The notes beneath the pieces were generated by a model. The model did no database searches and was not told the DNA's origin. It saw only the letters and a list, made by a program, of their open reading frames with translations. Of a stretch of DNA of 64,000 nucleotides, positions 25,001 through 59,766 are shown piece after piece (position 1 is the first letter of the stretch; each line of letters begins with the position of its first letter). The position numbers and the translations under genes are program-made. The stretch lies in assembly GCA_000004985.1 (NCBI GenBank), contig GG738930.1; one strand, 5' to 3'. This DNA is from Naegleria gruberi. Lineage: Eukaryota.

Positions 25001-25705
25001 GCCTTCTTTAAAACCATTAAGGATAGAAAACTTGAATATGAATTCAAGAAAGTTGAAGCTCATAAGGATAAGGAAAATATCAAAGTTGATTTATTGGCAA
25101 AGAATGCAACTCTGAAACCTAAAATCTTTGATATCCGTAAACTACTCTTTAATCAATATATCCTCACAAAGAACGATATTATAATCTTTGACTATAAGAG
25201 GTTAACTACCTCACAACATTTAAGGCTAATGCTTGACAAGATAGAGAGTCACCCCAATCACATACCTAACCTAGATTGGAACTCTATCAACGTCAGCTAC
25301 CTTAAATCCCATTTGTCTCCTAAATCTAAATATTATATTTGGAGAAACTCTTCAAATGCCCACATCAATTTTGGTGAGGGTAAAAGTTTCTGTCATGATT
25401 GTAACACAGAATCTGACCTTAATCACTATATTCATGAATGCCCTGCTCTGGATAGTGCCAGATACTTTTGCTTGTCAAAAATATCTGATATTCTTGATCA
25501 GAGAGAGTGTAAACTCACTCATATTCAATTCAGACCAGAAAAGCATCACCATGTACTCTTCTTCCACCATTCTGGAACCACATTCTTCGAAGATGGATAC
25601 GTACAACAATACCCAGACATTGCAGAGAAATGGCCTGAGATCCAGGGAGCCATTTCTAACTTTGTCGGCCGCTCCTATAGATATTATTATATTGACTCAA
25701 TGTAA
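22021..25705 (+). CDS. LINE ORF2 polyprotein (APE endonuclease-RT-RNaseH), interrupted by a +1 frame change near 22361-22407
   Basis: The APE domain begins in frame 1 (22021-22407) and continues in frame 2 (22361 onward, SGDINIDTRNP). The frame-1 ORF begins at TTG, not ATG. An (AAT)n-rich frame-2 ORF at 21674-22024 overlaps the ORF1/ORF2 junction. Confidence 0.65.
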
Positions 25706-29933: not shown

Positions 29934-29983
29934 NNNNNNNNNNNNNNNNNNNNNNNNNNNNNNNNNNNNNNNNNNNNNNNNNN
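29934..29983. other. assembly gap (50 N placeholder)
   Basis: It separates the truncated hydrolase gene from the truncated cyclase paralogue; both are incomplete at this junction. Confidence 0.95.
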
Positions 29984-31976
29984 CTTCTGGTGTTGACAAT
30001 GATTTGTAATCTCTAATATAAGCAATGTATGAAGATTTACCATCTTTTAGAATGTGGGATACTCTGATTTCTACCGAGATGATCTTGCCTGACTTGGTTT
30101 CTCCCTTCACTTTCTTTACCATATTGAGAGTATTCTTATCTTTGGTTTTACATTTTTCCAAATAGCTGTCATGTTTGAGTCTATCCTTCTTATTACAAAT
30201 AATTTTGACATTTCTTCCAACAACTTCTTTAGCTTCGAAACCAAAAGTGGATGAGGCAGCCTTGTTAAAAACTTGAATAATTCCCTTGTCATTGATTGTA
30301 ATAACTGGAATAGTAATCATTTCTGTTACTGCTTGATTCAGTGAGTTGGTCATTTGTGAATATTTGCCATTTTCTGCTTGTTGAGCAAACCTCATGTATA
30401 TACAAAAGTGAGTTTCTTGTAATTTTGATATTGGGATAATCTTGGCGGATACTGAAAAGAATTGCTTGATTGTTGTTGCTTTGGCTCTCAAAGTTCTTAA
30501 CTGTGAAAGGGCCCTTCTTCTCTCCAGTTTTTCTTCCTCACTGATTTGATTGTAAGGTCGAATATCATCGAGATAGTTCTGGTCTGAACCAATTTTATCT
30601 GCCTTCAGAGTGCTATTCTCAGTTGGACCCAAGAATTCATAAATTGCCTGATGTAGTTCAACAGAAGCATCATCCAAAAACAATTCACTCACATGTTCCC
30701 CAAGAGCACTGAATGAAAAGACTCCAAATAAATCCTCGGCTTCCTTATTCAAATATTCTATTGAGCCAAGTTTGTCAAAAACAAGAACTGGAAATCCACA
30801 AGTCATGAATTGAGACACCAAATGATTCAACTGTACAAATTCTACCTGATGTGTAAATCCAACTTCTTCATTAATTTCTCTATCACTCAGTAGGGCAGTT
30901 TCTGTCGACCTCACAGACATAACAGAAACTTCGCTCACTGTATCAGGAAAATCATCAAATCCTTCATTCTTCGTTTTCATTTTGGAAAGGAATCTCTGAT
31001 TAATTGACTGTTTGTAGCCTTGATCGTTTCTTGACATTCCTCTTTCGAGTGGAGGTCTTGCTCTGGGCACAGATTGTGATCCCTCCCTCATCATTAAACT
31101 GTTTTCTCTCTGTAGTGGCCCTCTCTTTGTTGGAACATCAGACAAGGGTTTATCAGATAGCTCATATTCATTATTCTTCCTAGTAATAAAACTACTATTC
31201 TCTCTTTGTAACATTCCTCTCCTAGGAGCAGATGGTGCTGTTGTCATTGTAGAATTACCTCTCAATAGAGGAGGTGGTCTCGATAGTGTGCCATCGTTAT
31301 TCGTCAGCAGAGAAGAACCTTCCCTCCTTAACATTCCTCTTGGTTTTTGGGAGATAGTAGAATTTTCTCTTGTCAGTTTTGGAGCTACTCTCAACGATGA
31401 AGAAACTCCAACTTTAAGCATTGCAGAGGTATCCAAACCTTCAAATATGTTCCTAGAACTTGCTGTATTTTTCGACGATACCTCATACATGGATTGTTTT
31501 TTAGACATGAACTCATTAAGTGCTTTTTGATCTTCGTCTTCCTTCTCCTTTCTAGCAGAGGCAGGTGTTTCTGTTATTGTAAATGGAGCAAGAAAGTCTG
31601 AACCACCTACTCCATCATTATTTGGAATCCGTGTTGGTACTTTAGGTTTTACTGGACTAAACCCTACCAATACATTTCTCGAACTTTGAGTATTGAAAGC
31701 TCCAGGAGACGGTTTTGACTTTTTTGCTTGGAGAAACTCTTGGAGAGCCTTCTCATCCTCATCTTCATCATCCTTATTGTTTTGTTTTGTTGGGGAGGTT
31801 AGAGGTTTTTTAGGAGAAGTACTTTTAGAAAGAGCAGAAGCATCAAACGAAGCAAATATATTCCTCGAACTCTGATGATTAAAATTGGAAGAGGGTGAAT
31901 GAAGGTTTGCTGTCTTCTTCTTGGCTAGAAATTCCTGTAGAGCCTTATCGTCATCATCGTCATCATAATTTGTCAT
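29984..31976 (-). CDS. PAS-domain cyclase paralogue 2 (N-terminal regulatory region and PAS domains only; catalytic domain missing in the gap)
   Basis: ATG at 31976 (MTNYDDDDDDKALQEF...). It is collinear with paralogue 1 through ...YIRDYKSLSTPE, where the N run begins. The nucleotide sequence at 29984-30060 matches 15889-15965. Confidence 0.8.
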
Positions 31977-37599: not shown

Positions 37600-40539
37600 A
37601 TGCCCACCAATACAATAGCCACTTCTGCTACTCCCTCAACAAACAACTCGACTGCTGCATACTCAGCAACAACAACAAATTCCAACTCCAATTTTTTACT
37701 TCGACCCTCTTCGAGAGAACCACGAGTTATACGAAAAGCTCCAACTCCTCAGCCTTATCAATCGAAAAAGTCTGCTATCGGTCCAACTAGTGNNNNNNNN
37801 NNNNNNNNNNNNNNNNNNNNNNNNNNNNNNNNNNNNNNNNNNNNNNNNNNNNNNNNNNNNNNNNNNNNNNNNNNNNNNNNNNNNNNNNNNNNNNNNNNNN
37901 NNNNNNNNNNNNNNNNNNNNNNNNNNNNNNNNNNNNNNNNNNNNNNNNNNNNNNNNNNNNNNNNNNNNNNNNNNNNNNNNNNNNNNNNNNNNNNNNNNNN
38001 NNNNNNNNNNNNNNNNNNNNNNNNNNNNNNNNNNNNNNNNNNNNAACGAGAAGCAAAACCTCCTGGAAATTCTGAGGTTCCTCCTCTCAAGAAGAAATCT
38101 TCATCAATAACAACCACTCTAACTTCATCACCTAAGGCTGCCTCTGGAGGAGAGAAAAAAAAGGCTTCTAATCTATCTCCCTCGCCAGTAAGAAAGAGAG
38201 GTTACGAATTGGCCACCAAGTCAAGCTCGAGTTCTTCCCTATTGAAGAATGAAGAAGGAAGTGCTGCCAAGCCATCTCAATTGAGAAAATCAGGATCGTT
38301 TACAGGGCAGAATGTCATTTCTAATAATACAAAGAAGGAAGCAAATAATGGAAAAAAGTTGGCAAGACCAAAGGGATCTGCTTTTCAAAAGAAGCGTCCT
38401 CTTGATGATAAATCTGTTTCATACAAGCTGTTGGAAGAAATTGTCAATTCAACCATTACTCAGTTTATTAAGCAAGATGGAATTTTAAGTCATAGAGACT
38501 TACGCTTAATTATTAATAAGAAGATTGCCCTCGTCAAGTCAATCCATGACAATATTATTGGATCTGAAGCTGTATTTAGAACACCATTTGGGTCGAAAAA
38601 GTATTTACCAATCACGTATTGTGATTACATTGCAACGGGGAAACCATTGAAAATGATTGAGGATTACATTTTGGAACAAGTTTTACCAACCTATGCCAAC
38701 ACTCATAATACAACATCTTTCACAGGTTATCAAACAACACACTTGATAGAAGATGCAAGACAAATAATTGCTCAATGTGTGAATGCCAATTTGAAAAAAC
38801 CAGAAGTTGCAAGTTCAACCTGTACAGTGAGTGGGGAGTGTGCTTCACAGGAATCCAACAACACTCAGAAGGAAGACGATGAAGATGTTATTATCTTTGC
38901 TGGAAGTGGTAGTGCAGCATGTATCAATACACTCATTCACTACATTGGAATCAGACAGAAAGTGAGAGAGGCACCAAGTGAAAAGGAGCTCCCTGTTGTC
39001 ATTATCTCAACACTGGAACACCACAGTAATATTCTTGCTTGGAGAGAAACTGGAGCTTGTGTGATTCAAATTATGGAAGATAAGTACGGTAATGTCGACC
39101 TGGATGAACTACTAATTCACCTCAAACAATTCAAAGACAGTGGAAGAATGCTAATTGTCTCAATGACTGCAGCTTCAAATGTAACTGGTGTTGTGACTGA
39201 TACTGAAGCTATTGCCAAGTTGGCTCACGAAAATAATGCTTGGTGCTTTTTTGACTATGCTGGAGGTGCTCCATATTTGGATATTAATGTCAATCCAAAG
39301 AATGATCCTCTTCTTGCTAAGGATGCAGTCTTTATATCCCCACACAAATTTATTGGTGGTCCAAGCACTCCTGGTGTTTTGATTGCCAAGAAGAAACTCT
39401 TTTCAAATACAGTGCCAAGTCAACCTGGTGGTGGTACAGTGACCTACAATCACAGTTATACTCCAGTTGTTGAAGAAAAGGAGGAAGGAGGCACATCAAA
39501 TATTATTGGAAGCATTCGGTGTGCTCTGGTATTCAAGTTGAAGGATGAAGTTGGACCAAAATTGATTCAGAGAATTGAGGAAAAGTATAGAGATAGAGCT
39601 TTAAAGACGTGGTCAACAAATCCCAATCTTGTAATGGTTGGTCCTGGATTGGACTGTATTGGGGAGGGAAAGGTTGAAAAACTTGCCTTCTTCTCCTTTT
39701 TGGTCAAACATGAAGACTACTTTTTGCATCCATCCTATGTGAGTTTGTTGTTGAATGATCTGTTTGGACTGCAGAGCCGTCCCGGATGTTCTTGTGCTGG
39801 TCCTTACGGGGCTGAAATATTGGGCATTCAAATGACCAAGTTAAATCTTATTGAAGCTGCCATTGTTGAATCTATCAAGTCGTCCAATAGCTTGACTTGT
39901 TTGAAGCCAGGTTGGAGTAGACTCAATTTGAACTACTTTTTCGATGATAATACTGTTCAATTTGTTTTACAGGCTGTGGACTTTGTTGCAACTCATGGCT
40001 GGAAATTATTGCCTTACTATGTTTTTGATTCAAAAACCAATGAATGGAGTCATAGAAGATTTGGAAATAATTCACCTATGCGTTTGTCAGGATATTTTGA
40101 TAACTTTACCAAATACACAGAGGAAAATAGAAAGAAACTGACAGAGGTTTCATTTTCAAATGGCTTCTTGGAGTTTGTAGATAAGAATGGAGAACTTCAC
40201 AACACCGAGCCAACCACACCATTATCATACAGTAATATTTTGAAAGAAGCAGAGTCTGTATTGAGAGAATCAACAAATAACTTTAATGCACTCTACATTA
40301 ACATTGAATCTGAACTTAATAATATTTTTGGTGATGAGGAGCTCGGATTAAGACATAGATATGGTAATTTGCGATGGTTCATGCTTCCTTCTGAAGCTTT
40401 AATGGACATGAAAGGTATTGAACGTGAGAAACATACAGATCCTGTGATTGTTCCAAAAGTTTACCCATCCTCAGATAGTTATATCAAGCAAAAAAAGATT
40501 GAATCAAGAACATTCCTCAAATCAAGGTTAAATAAATAA
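37600..40539 (+). CDS. class-V aminotransferase-fold PLP-dependent enzyme (cysteine desulfurase/selenocysteine-lyase-like) with Ser/Thr-rich N-terminal extension; spans a 252-N gap
   Basis: ATG at 37600. Motifs VIIFAGSGSAACI, VVIISTLEHHSNILAW and ISPHKFIGGPSTPGVL (PLP-lysine context). The gap 37793-38044 lies inside the low-complexity N-terminal part. Confidence 0.65.
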   Translation: MPTNTIATSATPSTNNSTAAYSATTTNSNSNFLLRPSSREPRVIRKAPTPQPYQSKKSAIGPTSXXXXXXXXXXXXXXXXXXXXXXXXXXXXXXXXXXXXXXXXXXXXXXXXXXXXXXXXXXXXXXXXXXXXXXXXXXXXXXXXXXXXXREAKPPGNSEVPPLKKKSSSITTTLTSSPKAASGGEKKKASNLSPSPVRKRGYELATKSSSSSSLLKNEEGSAAKPSQLRKSGSFTGQNVISNNTKKEANNGKKLARPKGSAFQKKRPLDDKSVSYKLLEEIVNSTITQFIKQDGILSHRDLRLIINKKIALVKSIHDNIIGSEAVFRTPFGSKKYLPITYCDYIATGKPLKMIEDYILEQVLPTYANTHNTTSFTGYQTTHLIEDARQIIAQCVNANLKKPEVASSTCTVSGECASQESNNTQKEDDEDVIIFAGSGSAACINTLIHYIGIRQKVREAPSEKELPVVIISTLEHHSNILAWRETGACVIQIMEDKYGNVDLDELLIHLKQFKDSGRMLIVSMTAASNVTGVVTDTEAIAKLAHENNAWCFFDYAGGAPYLDINVNPKNDPLLAKDAVFISPHKFIGGPSTPGVLIAKKKLFSNTVPSQPGGGTVTYNHSYTPVVEEKEEGGTSNIIGSIRCALVFKLKDEVGPKLIQRIEEKYRDRALKTWSTNPNLVMVGPGLDCIGEGKVEKLAFFSFLVKHEDYFLHPSYVSLLLNDLFGLQSRPGCSCAGPYGAEILGIQMTKLNLIEAAIVESIKSSNSLTCLKPGWSRLNLNYFFDDNTVQFVLQAVDFVATHGWKLLPYYVFDSKTNEWSHRRFGNNSPMRLSGYFDNFTKYTEENRKKLTEVSFSNGFLEFVDKNGELHNTEPTTPLSYSNILKEAESVLRESTNNFNALYINIESELNNIFGDEELGLRHRYGNLRWFMLPSEALMDMKGIEREKHTDPVIVPKVYPSSDSYIKQKKIESRTFLKSRLNK

Positions 40540-41394
40540 TCTATCCCTAGGTAAAATAATTCGGTTCTGTTCAATCTTGACATCTTTTACTTCGAAGAGA
40601 GTTGACAACCTATTCAACCGTATGAGGTTTCCAGAAGAAAAAATTGCCATAATATTCCATTCTTCATTGCCAGTTTCAATGATTCGTTTCATGTCCAATC
40701 CTGTTAGATTTGTTTCATGAGAATTTGAAGAATCTCTTCTTGCAAATTGAAATATCTTTTCCGAGTCTATTAGATGGGAAATAGTGGAAATACTGACCAT
40801 ACTTTTTAATGCAGTAAAGCTTGGGTCAAACAATATGGACAATAAAAAAGTTAAAAGTGGTAGACAAGTTGGAGCAAGATCATATTTCCTGAATGTAAAG
40901 CATGGTTTCAATTTGACTTGATTATTGTGTAGAGTTGATATTTTCGAGAGGGATATTATCTTGCAGAGTGAAACAAGAGTCGATAATTCATTTTGAATTT
41001 CATCTTGATTGTTACCATATTTATATTCTAAAAATGTCATAATATCAAAATTAAATATAAATTCCAACGAGTTTTCGCCTCTCCTTGGTAGTAGAGAGAA
41101 AAGATATTGAAACACTCTCACATAATCAATACAATCATTATCCAAAAATTCATATTCACTTCCACCAATAAAATTCCTAATTAAATTAAAATTAGAAATG
41201 GCCTTCTCCAATCCAATCAACACATCTTCCAAGTAGTATTTCTTTACAAATATATATTTGTAAATATATGAACTTGTATGAATAGCAATGTACCATGTTC
41301 TACTGACAAGGCTACATTTAATTTGATCCGATAGGTCCAAATATTCCGTGATGACTGATACGAGGTCTTGATGAAGAACGTCTTGTTGATTCAT
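40528..41394 (-). CDS. F-box domain protein
   Basis: N-terminal [25 protein letters not shown] is a typical F-box. ATG at 41394 overlaps the stop of the upstream chromodomain gene (ATGA). Confidence 0.6.
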
Positions 41395-42284
41395 TTTTTC
41401 TTACGATTTTCCTGTTCAAAATTGTGGATCAAATCTTCTGAAATGTTCTCAAGTGGTTCCCAAGTATTATCAGAGTCAGGATAACCAGCCCACTTAACAA
41501 GGTATTCAACCTTTTTCCTTCTTGTTCTCTTACCCACTAATTTTTCTACTCTGTATTGTCCATCGTCCAGCTCGTCATCACTTTCTAAAGTTGGTGGTTC
41601 AATAACTTGTGCTGTTTTTGGTTTTCTGATTGGTGTTCTCTTTGGTGTTTCTGTTTTGGCCTTTTTGGAAGAAGAAGCTCCACCTCTCTTGATGGATTTA
41701 CGTTTCTTTGGAACTTCTTCCTCTGATATTGGAGTTGTTACTTCTGTTTCGAGTCGTTTCTTACTAGGGGTTGAAGGAGGAGGTAAAATTGAAGTTGATG
41801 GTCCTGGTTGTTCACCCAGAACTTCCTTGATAAGTGAAGACTGTGCTTCGTGAACACCTGTCACTTCTGAAAAGTAATTGAATATATTTGCTAATCCAAT
41901 TGGCAGATCAACACCTCTATCATCCTGATTTAAATAATCCAAAATCAACAATTGATTATAATATTGAAAATGTTGGTCTCTGGTAAAACTGGAACCAATT
42001 TTTCTCTTTTCGATATCTAAATAATATTTAGCACAAGTTAATAGTTTTGTCTGACTATTAATCAAAGCTCCCAACATTGGAGTATCCGATCCACTTGTTG
42101 TTGTTGTTCCATTACTACTTGAAGTTCCAGCTTTTCTTCTACTAGTTGCAGTTACTGTTGTTGTTGTTGAAGATTTTGATGAAGAAGATTTACTAGCAGG
42201 AAGCTTAACTTCAGGTTCCTCGTCTTCACTACTACTACTGAGTGTGTAAGTTGCCGAAGCTTCTTTCGATCGTTTTGTAGCCAT
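41391..42284 (-). CDS. chromodomain protein (HP1-like chromo domain at C-terminus)
   Basis: C-terminal [38 protein letters not shown] matches the chromo-domain consensus. Ser/Thr/Lys-rich N-terminus. Confidence 0.7.
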
Positions 42285-42389: not shown

Positions 42390-44872
42390 TTATTCCAAAA
42401 TGTTGAGAGTTGGTGTTTGAGCTTGTTGTTCACATAATCGAAGTAAATGTTGGGTTGGAAGGTCATTTGGGTTGACTTGTTGATATTCTCGAAATAGAGG
42501 AATGGCTTCTTCAAATTTACCTTCAAACAGAAGAGAGCAACCTTGGTTGTAAACTCCCCATTTTAAATATCTTTCCTTCTTATTGAAATGTGAATGTAAA
42601 TCTTTGGTCGAGTTAAGTAAATGAGTAGAGATTGGAAACTTACCATCATCAGTTTCTTGTTTCATTTCAATTGAATCTCCCAATTCATATAATAAACAAT
42701 CTTTTGTCAATGAATTTGACATAGAAACACTTCCAATTTCCCAATTTTCTTGGTTGAAATCATCTAGAGAGGAAAAGAAATAATCCTCCCTTAATTCTCT
42801 TCTATCCAGGAATCTAGTCTCACACCTAGTGTGGCAATATTGCTTGATGTGCTGTGTGATAATGATTGGAACTTTGAGTTTCTTGCCAAATCTTATTATT
42901 TGATCCAAATTATGTCTCGTGCTTGAAAAAATTGTAAAGTGCTTAATGTCTTTAGTTCCAATATTTCCACAAAATGTTTTTTGAGCACAAATAGCAAATC
43001 TGAAATTAATCAATTCACAAATTTCCTCCCTCAATAGTCCACTTTCTCTCCACTTGTTTTCTTTCACGTTGGTTAACTTTTCTTGTAAAAGTTGAGCGCT
43101 GGCAACTGCTTTTTCTTCGTGATTGTTCTGGTTAATAGTAGTATTATAAGCAATAGTTAAAATATCATTCTCAAAGTTGACCAAATGGCCAGATGTAGTC
43201 CTAATCACTGTGTCCACTTGGCTAAATAAATCTCCCAACAATGAAACTAGATGAGTTGGGTTTCCTTCTAAGGATAACAACCATTCATTCAATCCTTCAA
43301 TGTACATTTGATTGATACTAATCTTTCTTGGTTCCAAATAGAGAGAAAATTTGCATTTCAATTTAGATGATTTTTTCTTACTGTCCAAAATATTAGATAA
43401 TTTTGAAGCTTTCCCTCCTTCAAGTGAATTATCTTCAATGCTTGAAAATGGTTGACTTTTTTCCAATTCAACAGAATCTGAAGTCATTGTTCTAGGTGAA
43501 AAGGAATCCAACGAAAGTCTAGTTGCAGTTTCTTGTTCTCCATTTNNNNNNNNNNNNNNNNNNNNNNNNNNNNNNNNNNNNNNNNNNNNNNNNNNNNNNN
43601 NNNNNNNNNNNNNNNNNNNNNNNNNNNNNNNNNNNNNNNNNNNNNNNNNNNNNNNNNNNNNNNNNNNNNNNNNNNNNNNNNNNNNNNNNNNNNNNNNNNN
43701 NNNNNNNNNNNNNNNNNNNNNNNNNNNNNNNNNNNNNNNNNNNNNNNNNNNNNNNNNNNNNNNNNNNNNNNNNNNNNNNNNNNNNNNNNNNNNNNNNNNN
43801 NNNNNNNNNNNNNNNNNNNNNNNNNNNNNNNNNNNNNNNNNNNNNNNNNNNNNNNNNNNNNNNNNNNNNNNNNNNNNNNNNNNNNNNNNNNNNNNNNNNN
43901 NNNNNNNNNNNNNNNNNNNNNNNNNNNNNNNNNNNNNNNNNNNNNNNNNNNNNNNNNNNNNNNNNNNNNNNNNNNNNNNNNNNNNNNNNNNNNNNNNNNN
44001 NNNNNNNNNNNNNNNNNNNNNNNNNNNNNNNNNNNNNNNNNNNNNNNNNNNNNNNNNNNNNNNNNNNNNNNNNNNNNNNNNNNNNNNNNNNNNNNNNNNN
44101 NNNNNNNNNNNNNNNNNNNNNNNNNNNNNNNNNNNNNNNNNNNNNNNNNNNNNNNNNNNNNNNNNNNNNNNNNNNNNNNNNNNNNNNNNNNNNNNNNNNN
44201 NNNNNNNNNNNNNNNNNNNNNNNNNNNNNNNNNNNNNNNNNNNNNNNNNNNNNNNNNNNNNNNNNNNNNNNNNNNNNNNNNNNNNNNNNNNNNNNNNNNN
44301 NNNNNNNNNNNNNNNNNNNNNNNNNNNNNNNNNNNNNNNNNNNNNNNNNNNNNNNNNNNNNNNNNNNNNNNNNNNNNNNNNNNNNNNNNNNNNNNNNNNN
44401 NNNNNNNNNNNNNNNNNNNNNNNNNNNNNNNNNNNNNNNNNNNNNNNNNNNNNNNNNNNNNNNNNNNNNNNNNNNNNNNNNNNNNNNNNNNNNNNNNNNN
44501 NNNNNNNNNNNNNNNNNNNNNNNNNNNNNNNNNNNNNNNNNNNNNNNNNNNNNNNNNNNNNNNNNNNNNNNNNNNNNNNNNNNNNNNNNNNNNNNNNNNN
44601 NNNNNNNNNNNNNNNNNNNNNNNNATAACAAACACACTCATTAATGTCAAACTCGAAATTACTATAAGCATACAATTTCTTATAGAAATTTGGCAATTGC
44701 TCGCCGATAAGAAGAAGACGGAAGAGTTTGTATCCGAATTATTGTATTTTCTATTCCAATCATTGTCTTCATAACTAAATCTCCCATTAGAATAAATATC
44801 ATGTTGAGGTAAATCAAAGGCAAGAGGTAAAACCTTACGAGAGGACGTTGATGATCGCCTTGTGAGTGGCAT
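42390..44872 (-). CDS. cyclase-homology-domain protein with degenerate catalytic residues plus C-terminal TPR-like region; interrupted by a 1079-N gap
   Basis: The C-terminal part (42390-43545) aligns to a class III cyclase domain (HLVSLLGDLFSQVDTVIRTTSGHLVNFENDILTIAY; FRFAICAQKTFCGNIG; FTIFSSTRHNLDQI) but lacks the first metal-binding Asp and the N/R transition-state residues. A TPR-like helix pair follows. The N-terminal fragment is at 44625-44872. Confidence 0.5.
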
Positions 44873-45116: not shown

Positions 45117-48100
45117 TTAAGCTTCTGTTTTTGAGGGAGAGATTGTTGGTGAAGGGTTGAGATTGTTGGTTGTTTCTGGTAAATTTTGTTGGGTGTTGGA
45201 TGTTTGATTGAGTTTGAGAACAGTCAATTCGTCAACTGAACTTGATTCTAATAGATTTGTTGGAGATTGGGAGTCTATCTTGAGTTCTTGAATTTCTTGA
45301 ACTGTTGGCAATGGGTTTGCATGATGTTTGTCCTTTAACAGGTATGTTTTCATTTCACCCTTTCCTTTGACATAGATTGATTCTCTTTCTTCAAATTCAT
45401 ATCCCAAATCGAATACTCTTTCATAGGTTGCTCTTGAAATTTGAATTCTTCCTGGAACACCTGTTGATTCCATTCGAGAGGCTGTGTTGATTGTATCACC
45501 CCACAAATCGTAAGCAAACTTTTTAGTTCCAATAACACCTCCAACACATGGTCCTGTGTGCATTCCAATTCTCAAATTCACTTCCTTTCCAAATTTAATA
45601 TTGAAATCTCTCAAGAATGAATAAACTGAGATTGCAAACTTTAACATTCTCTCAGGGTGGTCAGATGATTTTGAAGAGTGAGTTCCTGAAACTGCAAAGT
45701 AAGCATCTCCAATAGTTTTGATCTTGTCAATCAAATATTTCTCAGTCAACTTGTCAAATTCATTCACAATTGTGTTCAACATCATCACCAATTGATCTGC
45801 TTCCATTCCTGAAGACATTTTGGTGAAACCAACCATATCAGAAAAGAAAATCGTAACATCTGGGAACTTTTCTGCGATATAGGTTTCTCCTTGTTTCAAT
45901 CTATTAGCAACTGGCAATGGCAAAATATTCAACAATAACTCTTCACTTTTCTTCTTTTCCTCACCTAGCAACAATGAATGTTTCTTCAATTGAGTAACAT
46001 CCTTCACAAAACAGGACAAGATTGGTTTACCAAGGTACTGACTGATAGAAATCGACACAAATGCAGGGAAAGTGGTCTTGTTCTTTCTCAATCCTGTCAC
46101 TTCGAATGAATCTGCTGAAACACCTGTTTCCTCATTGCAAACTTTCATGGAATCAATAAGAACTGTAATCTTTTCCACATTCAATTCTGTAAATAGAGTT
46201 TCTAATCGAATTCCCAAAATCTCTTCCTTCTTATAACCAAACATATCTTCACTGGAAGGATTGAACATTACAACCTCTCCCTTTGGATTACAGATAATGC
46301 TTCCATCTACACCACTATTCAAAATTGATCTTGTCATGTCCATATTTTCATCATCCACTTCAAGTCCAGACATGACTGCATTTCTTCTCTTTATCAATTT
46401 CTTCAATTTTTGAGCTGAGGATGGAACTCTATAGTTTAAAATATAGTCAATCATATCTGGTATCATGTCAACAACATCTTTAGGAATATAATTCAACATT
46501 ATTCTTAATGATTGAATTTCTCTAAAGAGATCCATCATCGCTAGATAGGAAAGCCAACCAAACACAAGAACTGCTAATGAGCCCAGAATGGTTGAAATGA
46601 TTGCCAAGTAATCTTCTGATTGTTTTGTATTCTGTACATATGTGCTTGTGAAATCGTAAATAAGCTGAACTGCAACCAGAGCTGGATAGTACAGATATGT
46701 AAAGTACTGATCAGTTTCGTATGATTTTGTGTAAAACCTTGCTTTTAAATCCTCATTAATCTCTGCTGCTAGATCTTGAAAAGAGTGAATCAACTTTTCT
46801 AAACCATAACATGAAACTCTTGTCTTCACCAAACTGTCTGGGAGAATATCCAAAGCCGGACCACTTGTGTAATTAACCATTGAAGTATTTGAATCACACT
46901 TATAGGCAAGTAATTTGTCAATATCAGAATATTTTCCAAAAAGAGAATTGGAATAGCCCAACTCTGGAGCTCCTCTTACAGCATAAGACCAGGACATTGT
47001 AATATTCATTAATTGCTTTTGATTCCGCAAGTGTAACTCATCGGGAGTGTAATCTGACATATTTGATGCAATAATCATCTCGGCCAACTTGAAATTCACA
47101 GAAGTTACTGAACTAAGAACGTAGTTTACAGAAGCAGCAGTTTTCATTGTAATAAACTGATTCTGTTTGTTGAGTTGGAATTCGTATATCTGAATAGGAC
47201 TCACCAATGCTACTACAAAAAATGTGATTGCAGTGTATATGATAATCTTATTCTTTGGACTTAGTACAGTTTCTCCGTAATCTCCAGTTTTAGTAGATGT
47301 CAAAGTGTGATATAGCTTACCAACCTCATCCTTTTGAATCTTTCTAAAGATATGAAAAATGACCTGTCTTATTTGAACAAAGTATTGACTCAACATGGAT
47401 ATATAGAACCCAACCAATACAAAATAGCATCCCAATAGAATTCCTGAACTCCATAAAAACACTTGTGAGAGGGTATCTGCTCTTTCCATGGAAAATGTCA
47501 AAAAGTATTGGCAAAACCCATCAAATGCATCGGTCATCGTCTCTCTATTGTACAGGAAGAACAAGACTGGGAAGTTTGTGGCAGTGTTATTCAATTGAAC
47601 AGGATAAGAAAACTGACTGATAACTGTTGGAGCTTGAGCTGCAAACATTGCAATGAAATCCAACACTGACACATTCATGGTTGTGTAAACCTGAGAGGAT
47701 TCTCCAACTACCTGCTTGTTTGGAATTTTGTAAGTCCACTTTTGAGAGATGAAGTCATCTGTAATAGATGGAAAGAATGACTCTGTGGATGCACTCATCA
47801 CATTCTTAACTAAATTTAAAACATAGTTCGCTTGCAGTGTTGCCAAATGCTGAACTGGTCCAGCAGTGGTTTCGTTCAAGTACCTGTATCTTGCTTGCAA
47901 TGTTCTAACATGATTTGCCATAATGCTTGGAGCACCAGCTATTGAGCAAATCTTTTCCTCTAGTGCTGTTCTACTCGTAAACTCTGATGAAACAATCAAA
48001 CTAAGAATCAACATGAATAGAATAATGAGAATGGAAATTACAATAAATGGAAGAAAAAGCATAAAGAATGATTTCCTGCGCTCTGGCATGTTGATAGAAT

Positions 48101-48687
48101 TTCTGTAGAATGCTTCCTCCCTCATAGTTTCTTCCATTCTTGCACTGATTGAATCCCAATTATCCACAACTTCATCGAATGAAACAGCATTCTTCATGGC
48201 AGCATTGGACTTACTGTGCTTCATTAATTGAGATGTAGAAGTAGCATAGGGAAGAACTCTATTTTCTGGTTGTTTTTTCTTAGTTGACTTTGCTTTCTCT
48301 TCCTCAATTTGGTTGGCTTCTTCATAAAGTTCTGCAGCCATTTCCAGTTCAAATTTGAAAGTTTCTAAGAAGTGAGCATATGCTCTCATTAAAGTCTTGT
48401 TATTCATATTGGAACTCATACTATTCTTGTATGCATTTTCACAATAATGTGTAAGATTGTGAGCTTGTCTGTTGATGTCCTCTAATTTTGTCTCTGAAGG
48501 ATTTTCGCTTGAAAGCTCTTTAAAGAAATCCTGATGTAGATTAATGATCTTTGCTTGTCTCTTCTCAAGTTTTTCCAATATTTTTTGAAGTTCAAAACTC
48601 AAGGCATCACCATCTTGTGATTGCACTTCAATTTCCTTACTTCTCAAATAGAAATGGAATAGTTGGACGAAACTTGGACTATGTCTC
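45117..48687 (-). CDS. receptor-type adenylyl/guanylyl cyclase: TM1, ~430-aa extracellular region, TM2, PAS, class III cyclase domain (first codons lie in the gap)
   Basis: Catalytic motifs VTIFFSDMVGFTKMSS, KIKTIGDAYFAVSG, GMHTGPCVGGVIG and YDLWGDTINTASRMEST. TM helices FLPFIVISILIILFMLILSLIV and LAIISTILGSLAVLVFGWLSYL. The ORF continues open (…RHSPSFVQLFHFYLRSKEIE) into the N run at 48688. Confidence 0.85.
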
Positions 48688-49877
48688 NNNNNNNNNNNNN
48701 NNNNNNNNNNNNNNNNNNNNNNNNNNNNNNNNNNNNNNNNNNNNNNNNNNNNNNNNNNNNNNNNNNNNNNNNNNNNNNNNNNNNNNNNNNNNNNNNNNNN
48801 NNNNNNNNNNNNNNNNNNNNNNNNNNNNNNNNNNNNNNNNNNNNNNNNNNNNNNNNNNNNNNNNNNNNNNNNNNNNNNNNNNNNNNNNNNNNNNNNNNNN
48901 NNNNNNNNNNNNNNNNNNNNNNNNNNNNNNNNNNNNNNNNNNNNNNNNNNNNNNNNNNNNNNNNNNNNNNNNNNNNNNNNNNNNNNNNNNNNNNNNNNNN
49001 NNNNNNNNNNNNNNNNNNNNNNNNNNNNNNNNNNNNNNNNNNNNNNNNNNNNNNNNNNNNNNNNNNNNNNNNNNNNNNNNNNNNNNNNNNNNNNNNNNNN
49101 NNNNNNNNNNNNNNNNNNNNNNNNNNNNNNNNNNNNNNNNNNNNNNNNNNNNNNNNNNNNNNNNNNNNNNNNNNNNNNNNNNNNNNNNNNNNNNNNNNNN
49201 NNNNNNNNNNNNNNNNNNNNNNNNNNNNNNNNNNNNNNNNNNNNNNNNNNNNNNNNNNNNNNNNNNNNNNNNNNNNNNNNNNNNNNNNNNNNNNNNNNNN
49301 NNNNNNNNNNNNNNNNNNNNNNNNNNNNNNNNNNNNNNNNNNNNNNNNNNNNNNNNNNNNNNNNNNNNNNNNNNNNNNNNNNNNNNNNNNNNNNNNNNNN
49401 NNNNNNNNNNNNNNNNNNNNNNNNNNNNNNNNNNNNNNNNNNNNNNNNNNNNNNNNNNNNNNNNNNNNNNNNNNNNNNNNNNNNNNNNNNNNNNNNNNNN
49501 NNNNNNNNNNNNNNNNNNNNNNNNNNNNNNNNNNNNNNNNNNNNNNNNNNNNNNNNNNNNNNNNNNNNNNNNNNNNNNNNNNNNNNNNNNNNNNNNNNNN
49601 NNNNNNNNNNNNNNNNNNNNNNNNNNNNNNNNNNNNNNNNNNNNNNNNNNNNNNNNNNNNNNNNNNNNNNNNNNNNNNNNNNNNNNNNNNNNNNNNNNNN
49701 NNNNNNNNNNNNNNNNNNNNNNNNNNNNNNNNNNNNNNNNNNNNNNNNNNNNNNNNNNNNNNNNNNNNNNNNNNNNNNNNNNNNNNNNNNNNNNNNNNNN
49801 NNNNNNNNNNNNNNNNNNNNNNNNNNNNNNNNNNNNNNNNNNNNNNNNNNNNNNNNNNNNNNNNNNNNNNNNNNNNN
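48688..49877. other. assembly gap (1190 N)
   Basis: It hides the 5' end of the cyclase gene at 45117-48687 and the 3' two-thirds of its upstream paralogue. Confidence 0.95.
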
Positions 49878-51100
49878 CAGTCAGCTCTCTCCATAGAAGT
49901 ATCCAAAAATGATCTACAAAACCAATCAAAAGCCTCAGACATTGTCTCTCTATTGTAGAGGAAGAAAAGAACTGGAAAATTTGTTGAAGTGTCGTTCAGT
50001 TGGGCAGGAGAGCTCAATTGAGAAATTGCTCTACCAGCATGATTTTCAAACATGTTTAAAAATTCCAAAACAGATACATTCATGGTAGAATAGAGTTGTG
50101 TAGATTCTCCTACAACTTGTTTGTTTGGAACCTTGTACAAAAACTTTTGGGCAATAAAATCTTCAGTAACAGCTGGGAAGAATGATGAGGAAGATGCACT
50201 CAATACATTATTAATCAATGTTGTAACATAGCTGGTCTGAACAGTAGCTAAGGCATGAGCGGTACTTGCTGAAGATTCATTCAAATATCTATACCTAGCT
50301 TGAATAGAACGAATGTGATTGGCCATAATGCTTGGAGCACCAGCTATTGAGCAAATCTTTTCTTCTAACACTGTTCTACTGGTAAATTCTGACGAAAAGA
50401 CCAGAGACATTGTTAATAAAATTAATAAAACAAGGAATGAAACAATCACAAACGGTAAAAATGTGAAATAATAGGATTTTCTGTGTTCTGGAGTGTTGAT
50501 TGAATTTCTATAGAAGGCTTCTTGTTTCATTGATTCTTCCATTCTTGCACTGATCGAATCCCAGTTATCTACAACTTCATCGAATGATACTCCATGTTTC
50601 AGAGTGTCTGATTTCCTTCTTTTCATAAGTGATGACTCTTCTGAGGCACTGGTATAAGGAACTACTCTATTACTTTTTGAATGAGACTGCTTGTTGGTTT
50701 TGGATTTCTCTTCCTCAATTTGATTAGCCTCCTCATATAATTCATTGGCCACTTCAATCTCAAATCTAAATATCTCCAAAAAGTATGCGTAAGCTCTCAA
50801 CAGGGTCTTGTTGTTCATATTGGTATACATGCAATTCTTGTATGCATTTTCACAAAATATTATCAAATTATTGGATTTTCTGTTAATCTTTTCAAGTTTG
50901 TCCTCAGAAGGATTTTCACTGGAAAGCTCTTTGAAAAATTCCTGGTGCAATGCCAGTATCTGAGATTGTTTCTTATCGAGTCTCTCTAATAATTTTTTAA
51001 CTTCATAACTAACATTAGCATAATTCTCAGAGTTGGCTTCAATCTCTTTGCATCTCAAAAAGTAATGGAAAACTTGAACGAAATTTGGGTTTTGTTTCAA
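49878..51100 (-). CDS. receptor-type cyclase paralogue (N-terminal ~400 aa only; remainder in the gap)
   Basis: Collinear with the N-terminus of the 45117-48687 gene (KEIEANSE.../KEIEVQSQ..., LHQEFFKELSSENPSE, TM helix, SRTVLEEKICSIAGAPSIMANH). The track start at 51100 is TTG. Confidence 0.75.
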
Positions 51101-57094: not shown

Positions 57095-57255
57095 GTTTAA
57101 TAAAAATCTATTCGAAAAAAGTTTAGTTTCGAATTGGATTCTTTTCCTTTTTACTAAATTTGATTCAAACATACCAATTTTGGAGTCGTACTGGAACCTG
57201 TAATTAGATGTTGTGATAATTGGAAAGTTTTGAAATTGCGTTTCCAATAAAAAAA

Positions 57256-59766
57256 ATGCAACCTAGACTATTCTTCATCTTTGTTTGTCTCATTCTCATT
57301 TTCGAATATTCAACTTGCAATGATATTAGAATCATCAAACCAATCAATCTTCAAAGTCAACTACAAGATATCTCTGAACCATTCTCCATCATTTCTATTC
57401 GAAAGTATTACAGTTTAATCATTAATAATATAGCTCCAATCATGGGCAAAAGTGCAGAATTTCTTGACGATTCAACAACTCTTGCTTCATTCTCCAACCT
57501 TTCCTGCGTTTTAAATATTCCATCCAATGGTGAATTAGCTCCATATGACAAGTCAATTGTCAACTCGATAGAAACGACAAGCTCTGTATGTTCATCTTTC
57601 ATTTTGGTTGAAAGAGGAAACATGCAAATCGATGCAGCACATCATGCCTACCTAGTTTTGGGCGAAGAACCAACTTTAATGATTTCTCCGAATGATTTAA
57701 TTCCACTTTGGTCAATTGTGTTGAAAAATGCAATGTTTTATGAGAATACTCGATTTGGAATTTGGAATAGGACAATTGACCAGGTGTTTACATTATCACC
57801 GATATATTTTACACCTTATTCTGTTGAATATGTATTGGATAATCAATTAGAAAGTGAAAGAAATGAAATTGTGAAAGAATTGGAAGAGGAAATTTTGGTT
57901 GACTTGGAACTTTTTGAAATAGTTCATCGAATTCAATTAGCGGAAGGGAGAGTAATGGGATTTAGTTCGATTAGAGTGGACGAAACATTTTTTTGTAATT
58001 CAACATTACATAATTCAACTTTTGTGGAAGAATATCACAATGCCTTATATAGAATTGATTTCTATTTATATATAATACTTAATCTAGGTTTAGTCAATTC
58101 AAGTGGTACAATTTCTGGTATTCAGGATATTGATTTGGTATTTAGTGATGGGAAATTTCGTAAATTTAATCCAAATTTCATATTAGAATCTATTCGAAAC
58201 GTATTACAACGAGGAGGTTTCAACAATTATCTATCCTATTCTCATCCTAACTCTTCTTTCGACATGCACTACTTTTCAAACTTACAAAAATCAAATATAC
58301 GATCAGTTTCTGAACTCATGATTCATTCCTACTGTTTCAGTTATTACAATCACTATGCCTCTCAATACTATTTCAGAGATAGCTCTCTATTTTACCTAAT
58401 CTTCAATGATGTGATTTACTTTCTACTAGCATTCACTGGAATTGCCCTCCTCCTTCTCAACATCACAAGTTATTCATTGGATTTCAATCTTTTCCTAAAG
58501 AAGAGAATTTTACTTCCCCTCATGGGACCTCCTACCTTAATATTGATAAGTTTGTGTTATACAGTTGCGATCAGATCAAAGTTATCGGTTGCAACTTATT
58601 GGATTCTCATGATTATTATTGTGTTTCCAGTTCCAGTTTTGATAGGTTCATATATGGTAACACTTTTTAGGTTTTCCTATTTAAAGAATATGGATTTGTG
58701 GCAGAAAGTTGTTTTCAAACATCCCAAAATTCAAAGACATTTGGCATCTGTCAAATCCTCAGTGGTTATTTCATTAATTTTGACATTGGCAGGTTTCGTC
58801 ATTTGTGCAGCTCCTGTCATTGGTGCTTCTCTCGCTGTTTTATATAGCAGTTTGAGTGTTCCACAGGAGATGTTCATTATCATGTTTGCTGCTGAGATTT
58901 TGTACATGTTAATTCTTGCAGTAATTTTCTTTACTGTTGATTTGAAGAATAATGGCGCCAAAATTATTAGACGAAAGGGAATAGGATACTTTTTCTTCTT
59001 TGATGATCCGTTTTATTATAGAATTGACTTGTTAATTATGATGGTTATGATGTTGTTGATTATTCCAATAATTGTTGGTTCTTTGAATGATACACTTTCG
59101 TATTTTATTGTTCGAAAGGTATTCTCATTGATTTTCTTCATGATGTTTTATTCGATAATTGGTGGAACTGTTACAATATTTTATTGGATTGGCAAAGTGA
59201 AACGATTATTATTTAGGAATAAGGAAGAAGAACCATTAGTTACACAATTAGAAAGTTTGTTGGAAGACGAAACTTTCAGAGAAATATTCAAATCTTATTC
59301 AAAGAATGAATTTTCAATGGAGAATATTCTTCTATATGAGGAATTGGAAAGATTGAGAAAACAAAGGAAATGTACACTGCAAGATTTGAAAAATTTATTC
59401 GAAACCTTTCTTTCAGCAACAGCAGTTCACGAAGTCAATTTTCCATCAGGAATTAAAAAGAGTTATCAAGAAATTATGGACTCTTACAAGGACGACATTT
59501 CAGATAATAGTGAAGGCAGTAATCTTTCAAAATTTGTTTCGAATTTAGCAAACCTAAACCTTCAGGATCAATTAAAACACCAAACCAAAAAGGAAAATTC
59601 AAGAATTGAGCAAGTTTTCGAACTACTTAGACCTGATCTACTGAAAAACATGTTAGACACCTTTTCTCGATTAGAAACCACTCCAGAATTTATCAATTGG
59701 AAGAAAATGAAAGAAATTCAAGTTTGTGAACTTGGAGAAGAAAAATCAAAGGAAGAAAATGTTTAA
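57256..59766 (+). CDS. 7TM-RGS protein: signal peptide, ~380-aa extracellular domain, seven TM helices, C-terminal RGS domain
   Basis: The track start at 57220 is TTG; the ATG at 57256 begins the signal peptide MQPRLFFIFVCLILIF. Seven hydrophobic helices lie between residues ~395 and 660. RGS signature: FREIFKSYSKNEFSMENILLYEELERL ... FETFLSATAVHEVNFPSGIKKSYQEIM ... LLRPDLLKNMLDTFSRL. Confidence 0.7.
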   Translation: MQPRLFFIFVCLILIFEYSTCNDIRIIKPINLQSQLQDISEPFSIISIRKYYSLIINNIAPIMGKSAEFLDDSTTLASFSNLSCVLNIPSNGELAPYDKSIVNSIETTSSVCSSFILVERGNMQIDAAHHAYLVLGEEPTLMISPNDLIPLWSIVLKNAMFYENTRFGIWNRTIDQVFTLSPIYFTPYSVEYVLDNQLESERNEIVKELEEEILVDLELFEIVHRIQLAEGRVMGFSSIRVDETFFCNSTLHNSTFVEEYHNALYRIDFYLYIILNLGLVNSSGTISGIQDIDLVFSDGKFRKFNPNFILESIRNVLQRGGFNNYLSYSHPNSSFDMHYFSNLQKSNIRSVSELMIHSYCFSYYNHYASQYYFRDSSLFYLIFNDVIYFLLAFTGIALLLLNITSYSLDFNLFLKKRILLPLMGPPTLILISLCYTVAIRSKLSVATYWILMIIIVFPVPVLIGSYMVTLFRFSYLKNMDLWQKVVFKHPKIQRHLASVKSSVVISLILTLAGFVICAAPVIGASLAVLYSSLSVPQEMFIIMFAAEILYMLILAVIFFTVDLKNNGAKIIRRKGIGYFFFFDDPFYYRIDLLIMMVMMLLIIPIIVGSLNDTLSYFIVRKVFSLIFFMMFYSIIGGTVTIFYWIGKVKRLLFRNKEEEPLVTQLESLLEDETFREIFKSYSKNEFSMENILLYEELERLRKQRKCTLQDLKNLFETFLSATAVHEVNFPSGIKKSYQEIMDSYKDDISDNSEGSNLSKFVSNLANLNLQDQLKHQTKKENSRIEQVFELLRPDLLKNMLDTFSRLETTPEFINWKKMKEIQVCELGEEKSKEENV

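What the first reader, a model, noticed from the sequence alone, without database searches (positions are those of the whole stretch)
42390..44872. Catalytically degenerate cyclase-homology domain fused to TPR-like repeats
The C-terminal ORF aligns with the class III cyclase core, but the first metal-binding Asp (FSDxVGFT), the transition-state Asn and the Arg of the FGDTVNTASR motif are all substituted (FSSTRHNLDQ). TPR-like helices follow. Such pseudo-cyclases usually act as regulatory dimer partners or scaffolds. This one sits 0.4 kb from the receptor-cyclase tandem.
Basis: partly seen in the sequence, partly recalled or inferred. Interest (0 to 1): 0.5.

Follow-up and report, generated by a model that had tools for sequence, protein, structure and literature searches.

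The report
Dead cyclase domain in Naegleria receptor
This gap-broken Naegleria gruberi gene belongs to a previously undescribed amoeba family of bacterial-style membrane receptors whose cyclase domain has lost key catalytic residues, so it probably signals without making cAMP or cGMP.

Summary

Metal Asp1 is Tyr81, the substrate Lys is Asn123, and the transition-state Arg is Gln215 or Ile216. Asp2 (Asp127) and Thr204 are kept. The Asn call depends on a one-residue register: His211, or the family-conserved Asn212. All 29 aligned paralogs lack Asp1, Lys and, in the CyaB register used for that count, Arg.

Neither catalytic half-site is intact, so it cannot complement a partner cyclase. The neighbouring cyclase is an unrelated class IIIa enzyme, and the adjacency is probably chance.

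Verdict: a divergent member of an undescribed receptor pseudo-cyclase family derived from bacterial-type class IIIb cyclases. Moderate interest.

The parts
44626..44872 (-). Putative first coding segment: ATG plus 82 codons open into the gap. The hydrophobic stretch at aa ~60-82 (CMLIVISSLTLMSVFV...) is probably the start of TM1.
   Evidence: ORF; hydropathy; paralogs have TM1 at aa ~50-110. There is no sequence homology to paralog N-termini, so assigning it to this gene is an inference from strand, open frame and topology.
43546..44624 (.). Assembly gap (1079 N, about 360 codons). It is inferred to hide the rest of TM1, the extracellular sensor domain, TM2 and the HAMP domain.
   Evidence: gap; in full-length paralogs the distance from TM1 to the FIPxHLL motif is about 374 aa, which predicts about 341 hidden residues here. 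Searches (HAMP; dCache; NIT) describe the paralogs.
43461..43505 (-). Degenerate copy of the family's post-HAMP signalling-helix motif: 'SFSPRTMTSDSVELE' against the family's 'xFIPxHLLxQLE'. The invariant Phe and Pro are kept.
43353..43460 (-). Ser/Lys-rich low-complexity linker (aa 29-64).
   Evidence: variable in all paralogs. In one search only the last ten linker residues (aa 55-64) were modelled, and they have low pLDDT.
42675..43352 (-). Class III (IIIb-derived) cyclase-homology domain, aa 65-290, catalytically degenerate.
43302..43304 (-). Tyr81 at the position of the first metal-binding Asp.
   Evidence: alignment; this column is never Asp in 29 paralogs.
43164..43178 (-). beta2-beta3 hairpin 'NFEND'. 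Asn123 replaces the substrate Lys. Asp127 is the retained second metal Asp. Glu125 and Asn126 are family-conserved.
42897..42938 (-). beta5/alpha4 segment 'FTIFSSTRHNLDQI'. Thr204 is the class IIIb purine-contact Thr. His211 or Asn212 sits at the transition-state Asn. Gln215 or Ile216 sits at the transition-state Arg.
   Evidence: gapped register; gapless register; family Asn in 26 of 29; the N+4 column is always Leu, Met, Ile or Val.
42585..42656 (-). A 17-aa insertion specific to this gene (ETDDGKFPISTHLLNST), followed by 'KDLHSHF' where the family has the near-invariant 'DEWMYEL' helix.
   Evidence: alignment; all 6 of the query's deviations from 35 conserved family columns lie in the tail. 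Five are in the 'EWMYEL' motif, and the sixth is Ala-to-Gly at aa 335 in TPR helix A, outside these coordinates; pLDDT is 42-51 here.
42423..42569 (-). One TPR-like helix-turn-helix (aa 326-361, YLKWGVYNQGCSLLFEGKFEEAIPLFREYQQVNPND) plus a capping helix (aa 362-374).
   Evidence: TPR_1 E=0.0025; PP5 TPR E=0.013; tail profile against TPR and solenoid structures; helices with pLDDT 96-98. Trp, Ala and Asp are invariant in the family.
42521..42643 (-). The 'intron' of the public gene model (P0001): 123 nt, GTAAGT..AG, in frame and free of stops. It is probably not an intron.
   Evidence: It would delete the invariant Trp and TPR helix A, which are conserved in 24 paralogs. The chance of 41 stop-free codons is 0.034.
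42390..42392 (-). Stop codon (TAA).

Best explanation
The locus encodes a divergent member of a multigene family found in Naegleria and Willaertia (Heterolobosea). The family consists of bacterial-type transmembrane receptors.

Architecture. It is seen in the paralogs and is only partly visible here because of the gap:
- a short cytoplasmic N-terminus and TM1
- an extracellular sensor (dCache in the main subgroup, NIT in another)
- TM2, a HAMP domain, a signalling helix and a Ser/Lys-rich linker
- a cyclase-homology domain derived from class IIIb cyclases
- a C-terminal single TPR-like unit

Shown: the CHD fold is intact, but the first metal Asp, the substrate Lys and the transition-state Arg are replaced. 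Asp1 and Lys are absent from every aligned paralog. Arg is absent from all of them in the CyaB register, and present in a few in the gapless register. Canonical two-metal cyclisation is therefore not possible. Both halves of the composite active site are damaged, so heterodimerisation cannot rescue it.

Inferred: the protein works as a ligand-regulated, non-catalytic dimeric output module. Ligand binding outside would be passed through TM2 and HAMP to the pseudo-CHD dimer. The resulting change in conformation, or in occupancy of the remodelled interface pocket (conserved FEN[D], HEEKA, CGNxGT and Asn), would be read out by protein partners, plausibly through the TPR-like tail. No cyclic nucleotide would be synthesised.
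For: - Organism and gene: (N. gruberi predicted protein).
- Family: (159 hits, 58 with E<1e-10). Searches place them in N. gruberi, N. fowleri, N. lovaniensis, Willaertia magna and environmental contigs.
- CHD homology and fold.
- Catalytic columns in 29 paralogs: Asp1 0/29, Lys 0/29, Arg 0/29 in the gapped register, Asp2 14/29, Thr 13/29, family Asn 26/29.
- Descent from active enzymes: one search shows that bacterial class IIIb cyclases with an intact D-K-D-T-N-R set align to the same HMM, and several carry the same C-terminal tail. name them as dCache or CHASE2 cyclases.
- Selection: the ORF has 384 stop-free codons (chance 2e-14). The query keeps every highly conserved CHD-core column of the family.
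Against: - No experimental or expression data were available.
- The ectodomain, TM2 and HAMP of this gene are unsequenced, so its receptor nature rests on paralogs, on spacing and on a truncated hydrophobic segment.
- The Asn register is unresolved.
- Acidic residues near the lost Asp1 (Glu83, Glu125) could in principle support non-canonical metal binding.
- 6YII was deposited as a 'class III adenylyl cyclase-like ATP-binding protein' and is now cited as a PycC pyrimidine cyclase (PMC11224242). Sequence-based 'dead' calls can therefore be wrong.
- This member has lost the family's near-invariant EWMYEL tail motif and carries a 17-aa insertion, so its tail may work differently or not at all.
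- Dimerisation and the partner-binding role of the TPR-like tail are pure inference.
Confidence: 0.6

Rival explanations
1. Regulatory heterodimer partner. The pseudo-CHD pairs with an active CHD, possibly from the adjacent cyclase genes, and modulates it as the degenerate subunit of a pseudo-heterodimer, like tmAC C1/C2 or sGC alpha/beta.
Against: Both half-sites are defective: Asp1 on one face, Lys and Arg on the other. Any heterodimer would have no complete active site, so the protein could only inhibit or sequester. The neighbour is class IIIa with about 14% identity, and the family HMM does not detect it. None of four paralog loci has a cyclase neighbour. Cyclase genes are so dense in this window that adjacency is uninformative.
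Confidence: 0.15
2. Non-canonical enzyme. The remodelled pocket (Glu83, Glu125-Asn126-Asp127, His142-Glu143-Glu144, Asn212) still binds metal and nucleotide, and catalyses a different reaction or uses a different substrate.
For: The strongest family conservation sits at former active-site elements: FEN[D], HEEKA, CGNxGT and Asn212. The history of 6YII/PaPycC shows that a CHD deposited as an 'adenylyl cyclase-like ATP-binding protein' can later be counted as a cyclase for another substrate.
Against: No carboxylate is conserved family-wide at or near the Asp1 position. That column is His, Tyr, Leu, Lys or Phe, and the +2 column is acidic in only 19 of 29. Asp2 itself is Asp in only 14 of 29. No basic residue is conserved in place of Lys or Arg.
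Confidence: 0.1
3. Decaying paralog. This copy is a recently inactivated or dispensable family member with no function of its own.
For: It has lost the near-invariant EWMYEL motif, carries a 17-aa insertion, and has a degenerate FIPxHLL motif. Its best relatives are only 36-40% identical, and the best named N. lovaniensis hit is not syntenic. The word-index search found no near-identical sequence in other assemblies.
Against: An intact 384-codon ORF in AT-rich DNA has a chance probability of 2e-14. All highly conserved CHD-core columns and the invariant tail residues Trp, Ala and Asp are retained. Other paralogs deviate at as many or more conserved columns.
Confidence: 0.1

Closest known systems
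Bacterial class IIIb sensor adenylate cyclases (CyaB of P. aeruginosa 3r5g, Cya2 2w01, CyaC 1wc1; CHASE2- or dCache-linked cyclases such as MBD3270691.1 and P0108)
   Different: Those proteins keep the full D-K-D-T-N-R catalytic set. The Naegleria family lacks Asp1 and Lys in all 29 aligned members, and lacks Arg in all of them in the CyaB register. It is eukaryotic and expanded into many paralogs.
Pseudo-heterodimeric cyclases with one degenerate site (mammalian tmAC C1/C2; soluble guanylate cyclase alpha/beta)
   Different: In those enzymes each subunit keeps one intact half, so one composite site works. Here both halves are damaged, so no active site can form with any partner.
PaPycC / 6YII, deposited as a 'class III adenylyl cyclase-like ATP-binding protein'
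   Different: It is now cited as a clade A pyrimidine cyclase of the Pycsar defence system (PMC11224242). It is bacterial, and no TM, HAMP or sensor context was seen for it here. It is a much weaker structural match than the class IIIb cyclases.
CHD proteins with TPR regions (mycobacterial Rv0386-type CHD-NB-ARC-TPR-HTH; Paramecium/Plasmodium channel-cyclases with a C-terminal TPR-like domain). Recalled from the literature, not tested here.
   Same: A cyclase-homology domain followed by TPR-type helices.
   Different: Those are active cyclases with multi-repeat TPR regions and other partner domains. Here there is a single TPR-like hairpin on a dead CHD behind a HAMP-linked receptor.
dCache/HAMP chemoreceptors and sensor kinases (PctD 7prq, Tlp3 4wy9, NarQ 5jeq)
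   Different: The output is a pseudo-cyclase rather than a kinase-control or kinase module. For this gene the region lies in the gap and is unverified.

Membership tests
Class III nucleotidyl cyclase catalytic domain (CHD, Pfam PF00211) as a fold and superfamily | Significant profile similarity to CHDs | tested here: met
   The single sequence is below the Pfam cut-off (16.7 against 21.9 bits). The family profile gives E=1.4e-10 to CyaB and hhalign probability 99.7%, E=6e-27, to 53 true CHDs.
Class III nucleotidyl cyclase catalytic domain (CHD, Pfam PF00211) as a fold and superfamily | CHD fold, as judged by structural superposition on solved cyclases | tested here: met
Catalytically competent class III cyclase | Two metal-binding Asp (beta1 and the beta2-beta3 hairpin) | tested here: not met
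   Asp1 is Tyr81. Asp2 is retained as Asp127. Asp1 is absent in 29 of 29 paralogs.
Catalytically competent class III cyclase | Substrate-defining Lys (or Glu) plus Asp, Thr or Cys | tested here: not met
   The Lys is Asn123, and it is never Lys in 29 paralogs. Thr204 is retained, as in class IIIb.
Catalytically competent class III cyclase | Transition-state Asn and Arg on alpha4 | tested here: not met
   The Arg is Gln215 (gapless register) or Ile216 (gapped register). The Asn is His211 or the conserved Asn212, depending on the same one-residue register. That part is inconclusive, but the pair as a whole is not intact.
Catalytically competent class III cyclase | Cyclase activity in vitro | not testable with these tools
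   Needs recombinant protein and an NTP cyclisation assay.
Complementing pseudo-subunit of a heterodimeric cyclase (tmAC C1/C2 or sGC type) | One intact half-site (either both Asp, or Lys, Asp/Thr, Asn and Arg) to pair with a partner's other half | tested here: not met
   Both halves are defective.
TPR repeat domain (Pfam TPR_1/TPR_2) | A 34-residue helix-turn-helix with the TPR consensus | tested here: inconclusive
   There is one motif at aa 326-361. TPR_1 gives E=0.0025, 18 bits, below the 27.8 cut-off. PP5 TPR gives E=0.013. The tail profile hits SRP72, CDC27 and consensus TPR at E=3e-4 to 1e-3. The modelled helical hairpin has pLDDT 96-98.
TPR repeat domain (Pfam TPR_1/TPR_2) | Tandem array of three or more repeats forming a superhelical groove | tested here: not met
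   Only four helices follow the CHD: one TPR-like hairpin, one preceding helix and one capping helix.
Heterolobosean HAMP-linked receptor pseudo-cyclase family (unnamed; defined here) | CHD-core signature FSLYLE, FEN[D], FNA, HEEKA, CGNxGT, N-L | tested here: met
   E=6e-50 to the nearest relatives. The query keeps all highly conserved core columns.
Heterolobosean HAMP-linked receptor pseudo-cyclase family (unnamed; defined here) | Tail signature YELG..DEWMYEL..KW..YN.AC...A..F....D.P...C | tested here: inconclusive
   The invariant Trp, Ala and Asp, and the near-invariant Cys, are kept. DEWMYEL is replaced by KDLHSHF after a 17-aa insertion.
Heterolobosean HAMP-linked receptor pseudo-cyclase family (unnamed; defined here) | TM1, extracellular sensor (dCache or NIT), TM2 and HAMP upstream of the CHD | not testable with these tools
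   The region lies in the 1079-N gap. Two things are consistent with it: a hydrophobic segment at the gap edge, and a gap size (about 360 aa) close to the roughly 341 hidden residues expected from paralog spacing.

The most novel reading that the evidence does not exclude
Naegleria and Willaertia have taken a bacterial-type dCache/NIT-HAMP-class IIIb cyclase receptor, abolished its catalysis, and expanded it into many paralogs per genome. These would signal independently of cyclic nucleotides, through a conserved remodelled CHD dimer pocket and a TPR-like adaptor tail. That would be a new output mode for cyclase-homology receptors in eukaryotes, and many of the more than 80 to 100 'cyclases' counted in Naegleria genomes would not be cyclases.
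Probability: 0.35. Interest if true: 0.55.

Novelty: new variant of a known kind. Interest (0 to 1): 0.38.

Why it matters
Naegleria is noted for a very large cyclase repertoire. One pangenome paper counts at least 81 (PMC9928731). Some family members are annotated as adenylate/guanylate cyclases or as 'guanylate cyclase domain-containing' proteins.

If a whole clade of these receptor-like proteins is catalytically dead, three things follow:
- Cyclase counts and inferred cAMP-signalling capacity in these amoebae, including the pathogen N. fowleri, are overestimated.
- The clade offers a natural system for asking what a cyclase-homology dimer does when it no longer makes cyclic nucleotide.
- It documents bacterial-type dCache/NIT-HAMP sensor modules on a eukaryotic surface receptor.

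For this locus, the practical outcomes are a corrected gene model (a probably false intron, and a start truncated by the gap) and a prediction of what the gap hides.

Tried and rejected
- The word-indexed homology search found only the gene's own model. With the family profile it found only 4 proteins. The exhaustive HMMER search was needed.
- Direct BLASTP to the neighbouring cyclase gave no meaningful CHD alignment. tblastn and the family HMM found no paralog elsewhere in the window. A tandem-duplicate origin is rejected.
- The N-terminal 82 aa show no homology to paralog N-termini. Only topology supports linking them to this gene.
- The afdb50 fold library was unavailable.
- N. gruberi paralogs P0008 and P0024 are not in the contig index, so genomic context was checked in N. 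lovaniensis instead.
- The bacterial promoter and terminator scan is irrelevant for a eukaryote and found nothing.
- Literature searches for Naegleria pseudo-cyclases, NIT-cyclases or a description of this family found nothing.
- I considered a shorter 42-nt intron that would remove only the 17-aa insertion. I rejected it as unsupported: it seemed implausibly short and would still leave extra residues.
- I considered using the Asn212 register to argue for partial competence. Two alignment methods disagree and no coordinates were available, so I did not.
Full report
**What is at the coordinates**

The window is Naegleria gruberi DNA. The public model for this ORF is 'predicted protein [Naegleria gruberi]' (P0001). 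On the minus strand an ATG at 44872 opens 82 codons that run into a 1079-N gap at 43546-44624. After the gap, 384 codons (43544..42393) run to a TAA at 42390-42392. The chance of 384 stop-free codons at this base composition is about 2e-14.

**Is the cyclase similarity real?**

For the single sequence it is marginal. Pfam Guanylate_cyc gives E=0.0057 and 16.7 bits, below the 21.9 cut-off. TPR_1 gives E=0.0025, also below cut-off. PDB phmmer gives only E~0.1 to CyaC. The word-indexed homology search found nothing except the gene's own model.

The exhaustive HMMER scan of 1.84 billion representatives found 159 relatives, 58 of them with E<1e-10. The named ones come from N. gruberi, N. fowleri, N. 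lovaniensis and Willaertia magna.

A profile of 29 members (A2) gives these results:
- It hits solved class III cyclases: CyaB 3r5g at E=1.4e-10, Cya2 2w01 at 7e-10, and CyaC 1wc1 at 1e-6.
- hhalign against 53 bona fide cyclase domains gives probability 99.7% and E=6e-27. That set includes the neighbouring gene's domain.
- An AlphaFold2 model of aa 55-384 built on this alignment has pLDDT 82.8 and pTM 0.80.
- Foldseek matches the model to OaPAC, CyaC, Cya2 and CyaB at E~1e-11.

The cyclase-homology domain (CHD) is therefore real. It spans aa 65-290 (43352..42675).

**Catalytic residues**

Aligned to CyaB, to the canonical CHD profile, or to both, the positions read as follows:
- The first metal Asp is Tyr81.
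- The substrate Lys is Asn123.
- The second metal Asp is retained as Asp127.
- The class IIIb Thr is retained as Thr204.
- The transition-state Arg is absent.

The Asn and Arg positions depend on where a one-residue indel is placed. hhalign and most HMMER alignments of true cyclases to the family HMM are gapless. The best HMMER hit, CyaB, places a gap before alpha4. That puts Asn212 on the Asn and Ile216 on the Arg. Asn212 is conserved in 26 of 29 paralogs. I could not resolve this without model coordinates.

Across the 29 paralogs, counted in the CyaB register:

| Position | Canonical residue present |
|---|---|
| Asp1 | 0 of 29 |
| Lys | 0 of 29 |
| Arg | 0 of 29 |
| Asp2 | 14 of 29 |

The family as a whole is degenerate, not only this gene. 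Conservation is nonetheless strong at former active-site elements: FEN[D], HEEKA, CGNxGT and the Asn.

**Does the gap hide the missing residues?**

No. The whole CHD lies 3' of the gap.

In this gene, the N-terminal exon ends in a hydrophobic stretch at the gap edge. The post-gap sequence begins with a degenerate copy of the signalling-helix motif (SFSPRTM...). Paralog spacing predicts about 341 hidden residues, and the gap is estimated at about 360. The assignment of the N-terminal exon and the content of the gap are inferences. The exon has no detectable homology to paralog N-termini.

**The tail**

After 'YELG' the family has 'DEWMYEL..KEKK.KW..YN.AC..FF....Y..A..LF........D.P....I..C'. The query keeps the invariant Trp, Ala and Asp, and has a good single TPR-like motif at aa 326-361. 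The model places helices at aa 330-340 and 344-357 and a capping helix at 362-376, all with pLDDT 96-98. The tail profile hits TPR and solenoid structures at E=1e-6 to 1e-3.

This is one TPR-like unit, not a repeat array.

The query is atypical upstream of the motif. A 17-aa insertion precedes 'KDLHSHF', which replaces the near-invariant 'DEWMYEL'. All six of the query's deviations from 35 highly conserved family columns lie in the tail. Five are in the 'EWMYEL' motif and one is Ala-to-Gly at aa 335.

**Origin**

Proteins that align to the family HMM with a complete D-K-D-T-N-R set come mostly from unnamed metagenome contigs. The few that carry names are bacterial class IIIb cyclases with CHASE2 sensors, for example MBD3270691.1 from Candidatus Peregrinibacteria. 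One, P0108, has a Pfam dCache_1 sensor domain. Several also match the tail. The layout of sensor, TM segments, CHD and TPR-like tail therefore exists in active enzymes. The heterolobosean family looks like a derivative that lost catalysis.

A second degenerate group has ankyrin repeats, a CHD with K/R-S-S-T at the first four catalytic columns, and the same tail. It appears in unnamed or unclassified metagenome and assembly contigs.

**Relation to the neighbouring cyclases**

The neighbour at 45117-48647 has TPR_TmcB, PAS and Guanylate_cyc domains (E=8e-60). It carries the class IIIa catalytic set (FSDMVGFT, KTIGDAY, YDLWGDTINTASR) and is about 14% identical to the family. The family HMM does not detect it.

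The window also holds PAS-cyclase genes at 15214-18369 and at 28614-31976, so a cyclase neighbour is expected by chance. Four paralog loci in N. lovaniensis have no gene with a cyclase Pfam hit within 8-10 kb.

There is also a mechanistic objection. A CHD dimer needs both Asp from one subunit and Lys, Thr/Asp, Asn and Arg from the other. This protein lacks components on both faces, so it cannot complete a site with any partner. At most it could sequester one.

**Most likely mechanism**

Shown: an intact CHD fold without a canonical catalytic apparatus, family-wide conservation, and a receptor architecture in the paralogs.

Inferred: this is a ligand-regulated, non-catalytic receptor. The HAMP domain would drive conformational change in a pseudo-CHD dimer, and partners would read the signal through the TPR-like tail or the remodelled interface pocket.

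Rivals:
- Inhibitory or regulatory heterodimer partner (0.15).
- Non-canonical enzyme (0.10). The 6YII case is a caution here. It was deposited as an 'AC-like ATP-binding protein' and is now cited as a pyrimidine cyclase (PMC11224242).
- Decaying paralog (0.10).

**Novelty**

Degenerate CHDs are a known concept (tmAC C1/C2, sGC). Some family members are already labelled 'guanylate cyclase domain-containing' or 'adenylate/guanylate cyclase'. I found no description of a dCache/NIT-HAMP receptor family in Naegleria whose members all have degenerate CHDs. A pangenome paper simply counts at least 81 cyclases (PMC9928731). I rate it a new variant of a known kind, of moderate interest.

**Gene-model note**

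The public model P0001 starts at Met20, just after the gap. It also splices out 42521-42643 (123 nt, in frame, no stops). That would remove the invariant Trp and TPR helix A. The intron is probably false.

Noticed in passing
window 42521-42643 (minus strand): The public gene model (P0001, 324 aa) removes a 123-nt in-frame, stop-free 'intron' (GTAAGT..AG). The removed stretch encodes the family-invariant Trp and TPR helix A, so the intron is probably false. The model also starts at the first Met after the gap.
   Followed up: yes
window 15214-18369(-), 28614-31976(-), 45117-48647(-), 48644-51100(-): The window is dense in PAS-cyclase genes. There is one PAS+Guanylate_cyc gene (E=5e-44). A second PAS ORF is split by a 50-N gap, and its cyclase part was not checked. 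A third is TPR_TmcB+PAS+cyclase. A TPR_TmcB N-terminus follows, whose remainder lies in the 1190-N gap at 48688-49877.
   Followed up: partly
window 13161-14882(+), 57220-59766(+); L001 11460-14554; L004 13047-15467: RGS-domain genes occur in this window. They also lie next to, or one gene away from, pseudo-cyclase paralogs in two of four N. lovaniensis loci. This could be coincidence, because RGS genes are numerous in Naegleria, or a weak functional association.
   Followed up: no
window 22361-25705(+): A long ORF with reverse transcriptase (RVT_1, E=4e-28) and RNase H domains. It is a retroelement.
   Followed up: no
window 40528-42284(-): A chromo-domain ORF (41391-42284, with a Ser/Thr-rich low-complexity N-terminal part) overlaps an F-box ORF (40528-41394) by 4 nt, immediately downstream of the target gene. 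They may be one gene with a frameshift or intron, or two tightly packed genes.
   Followed up: no
P0053, P0060, P0064, P0067, P0078 (unnamed or unclassified metagenome and assembly contigs; no locus fetched): A second, distinct degenerate CHD group. It has N-terminal ankyrin repeats and a CHD with K/R-S-S-T at the Asp1, Lys, Asp2 and Thr columns. The same TPR-like tail matches in at least P0064. JGI names two of them 'ankyrin repeat protein/class 3 adenylate cyclase'. Taxon unknown.
   Followed up: partly
L001 and L002 (N. lovaniensis paralog loci): Two paralogs share a break in the coding frame at the same family-HMM position (47/48). This suggests a conserved intron that the N. gruberi gene lacks, since its ORF is continuous there.
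   Followed up: no
P0008 ectodomain (N. gruberi paralog XP_002679045): Compared with the other paralogs, P0008 lacks an ectodomain segment of about 40 residues that contains two near-invariant Cys. This may be another gene-model error in the N. gruberi annotation.
   Followed up: no
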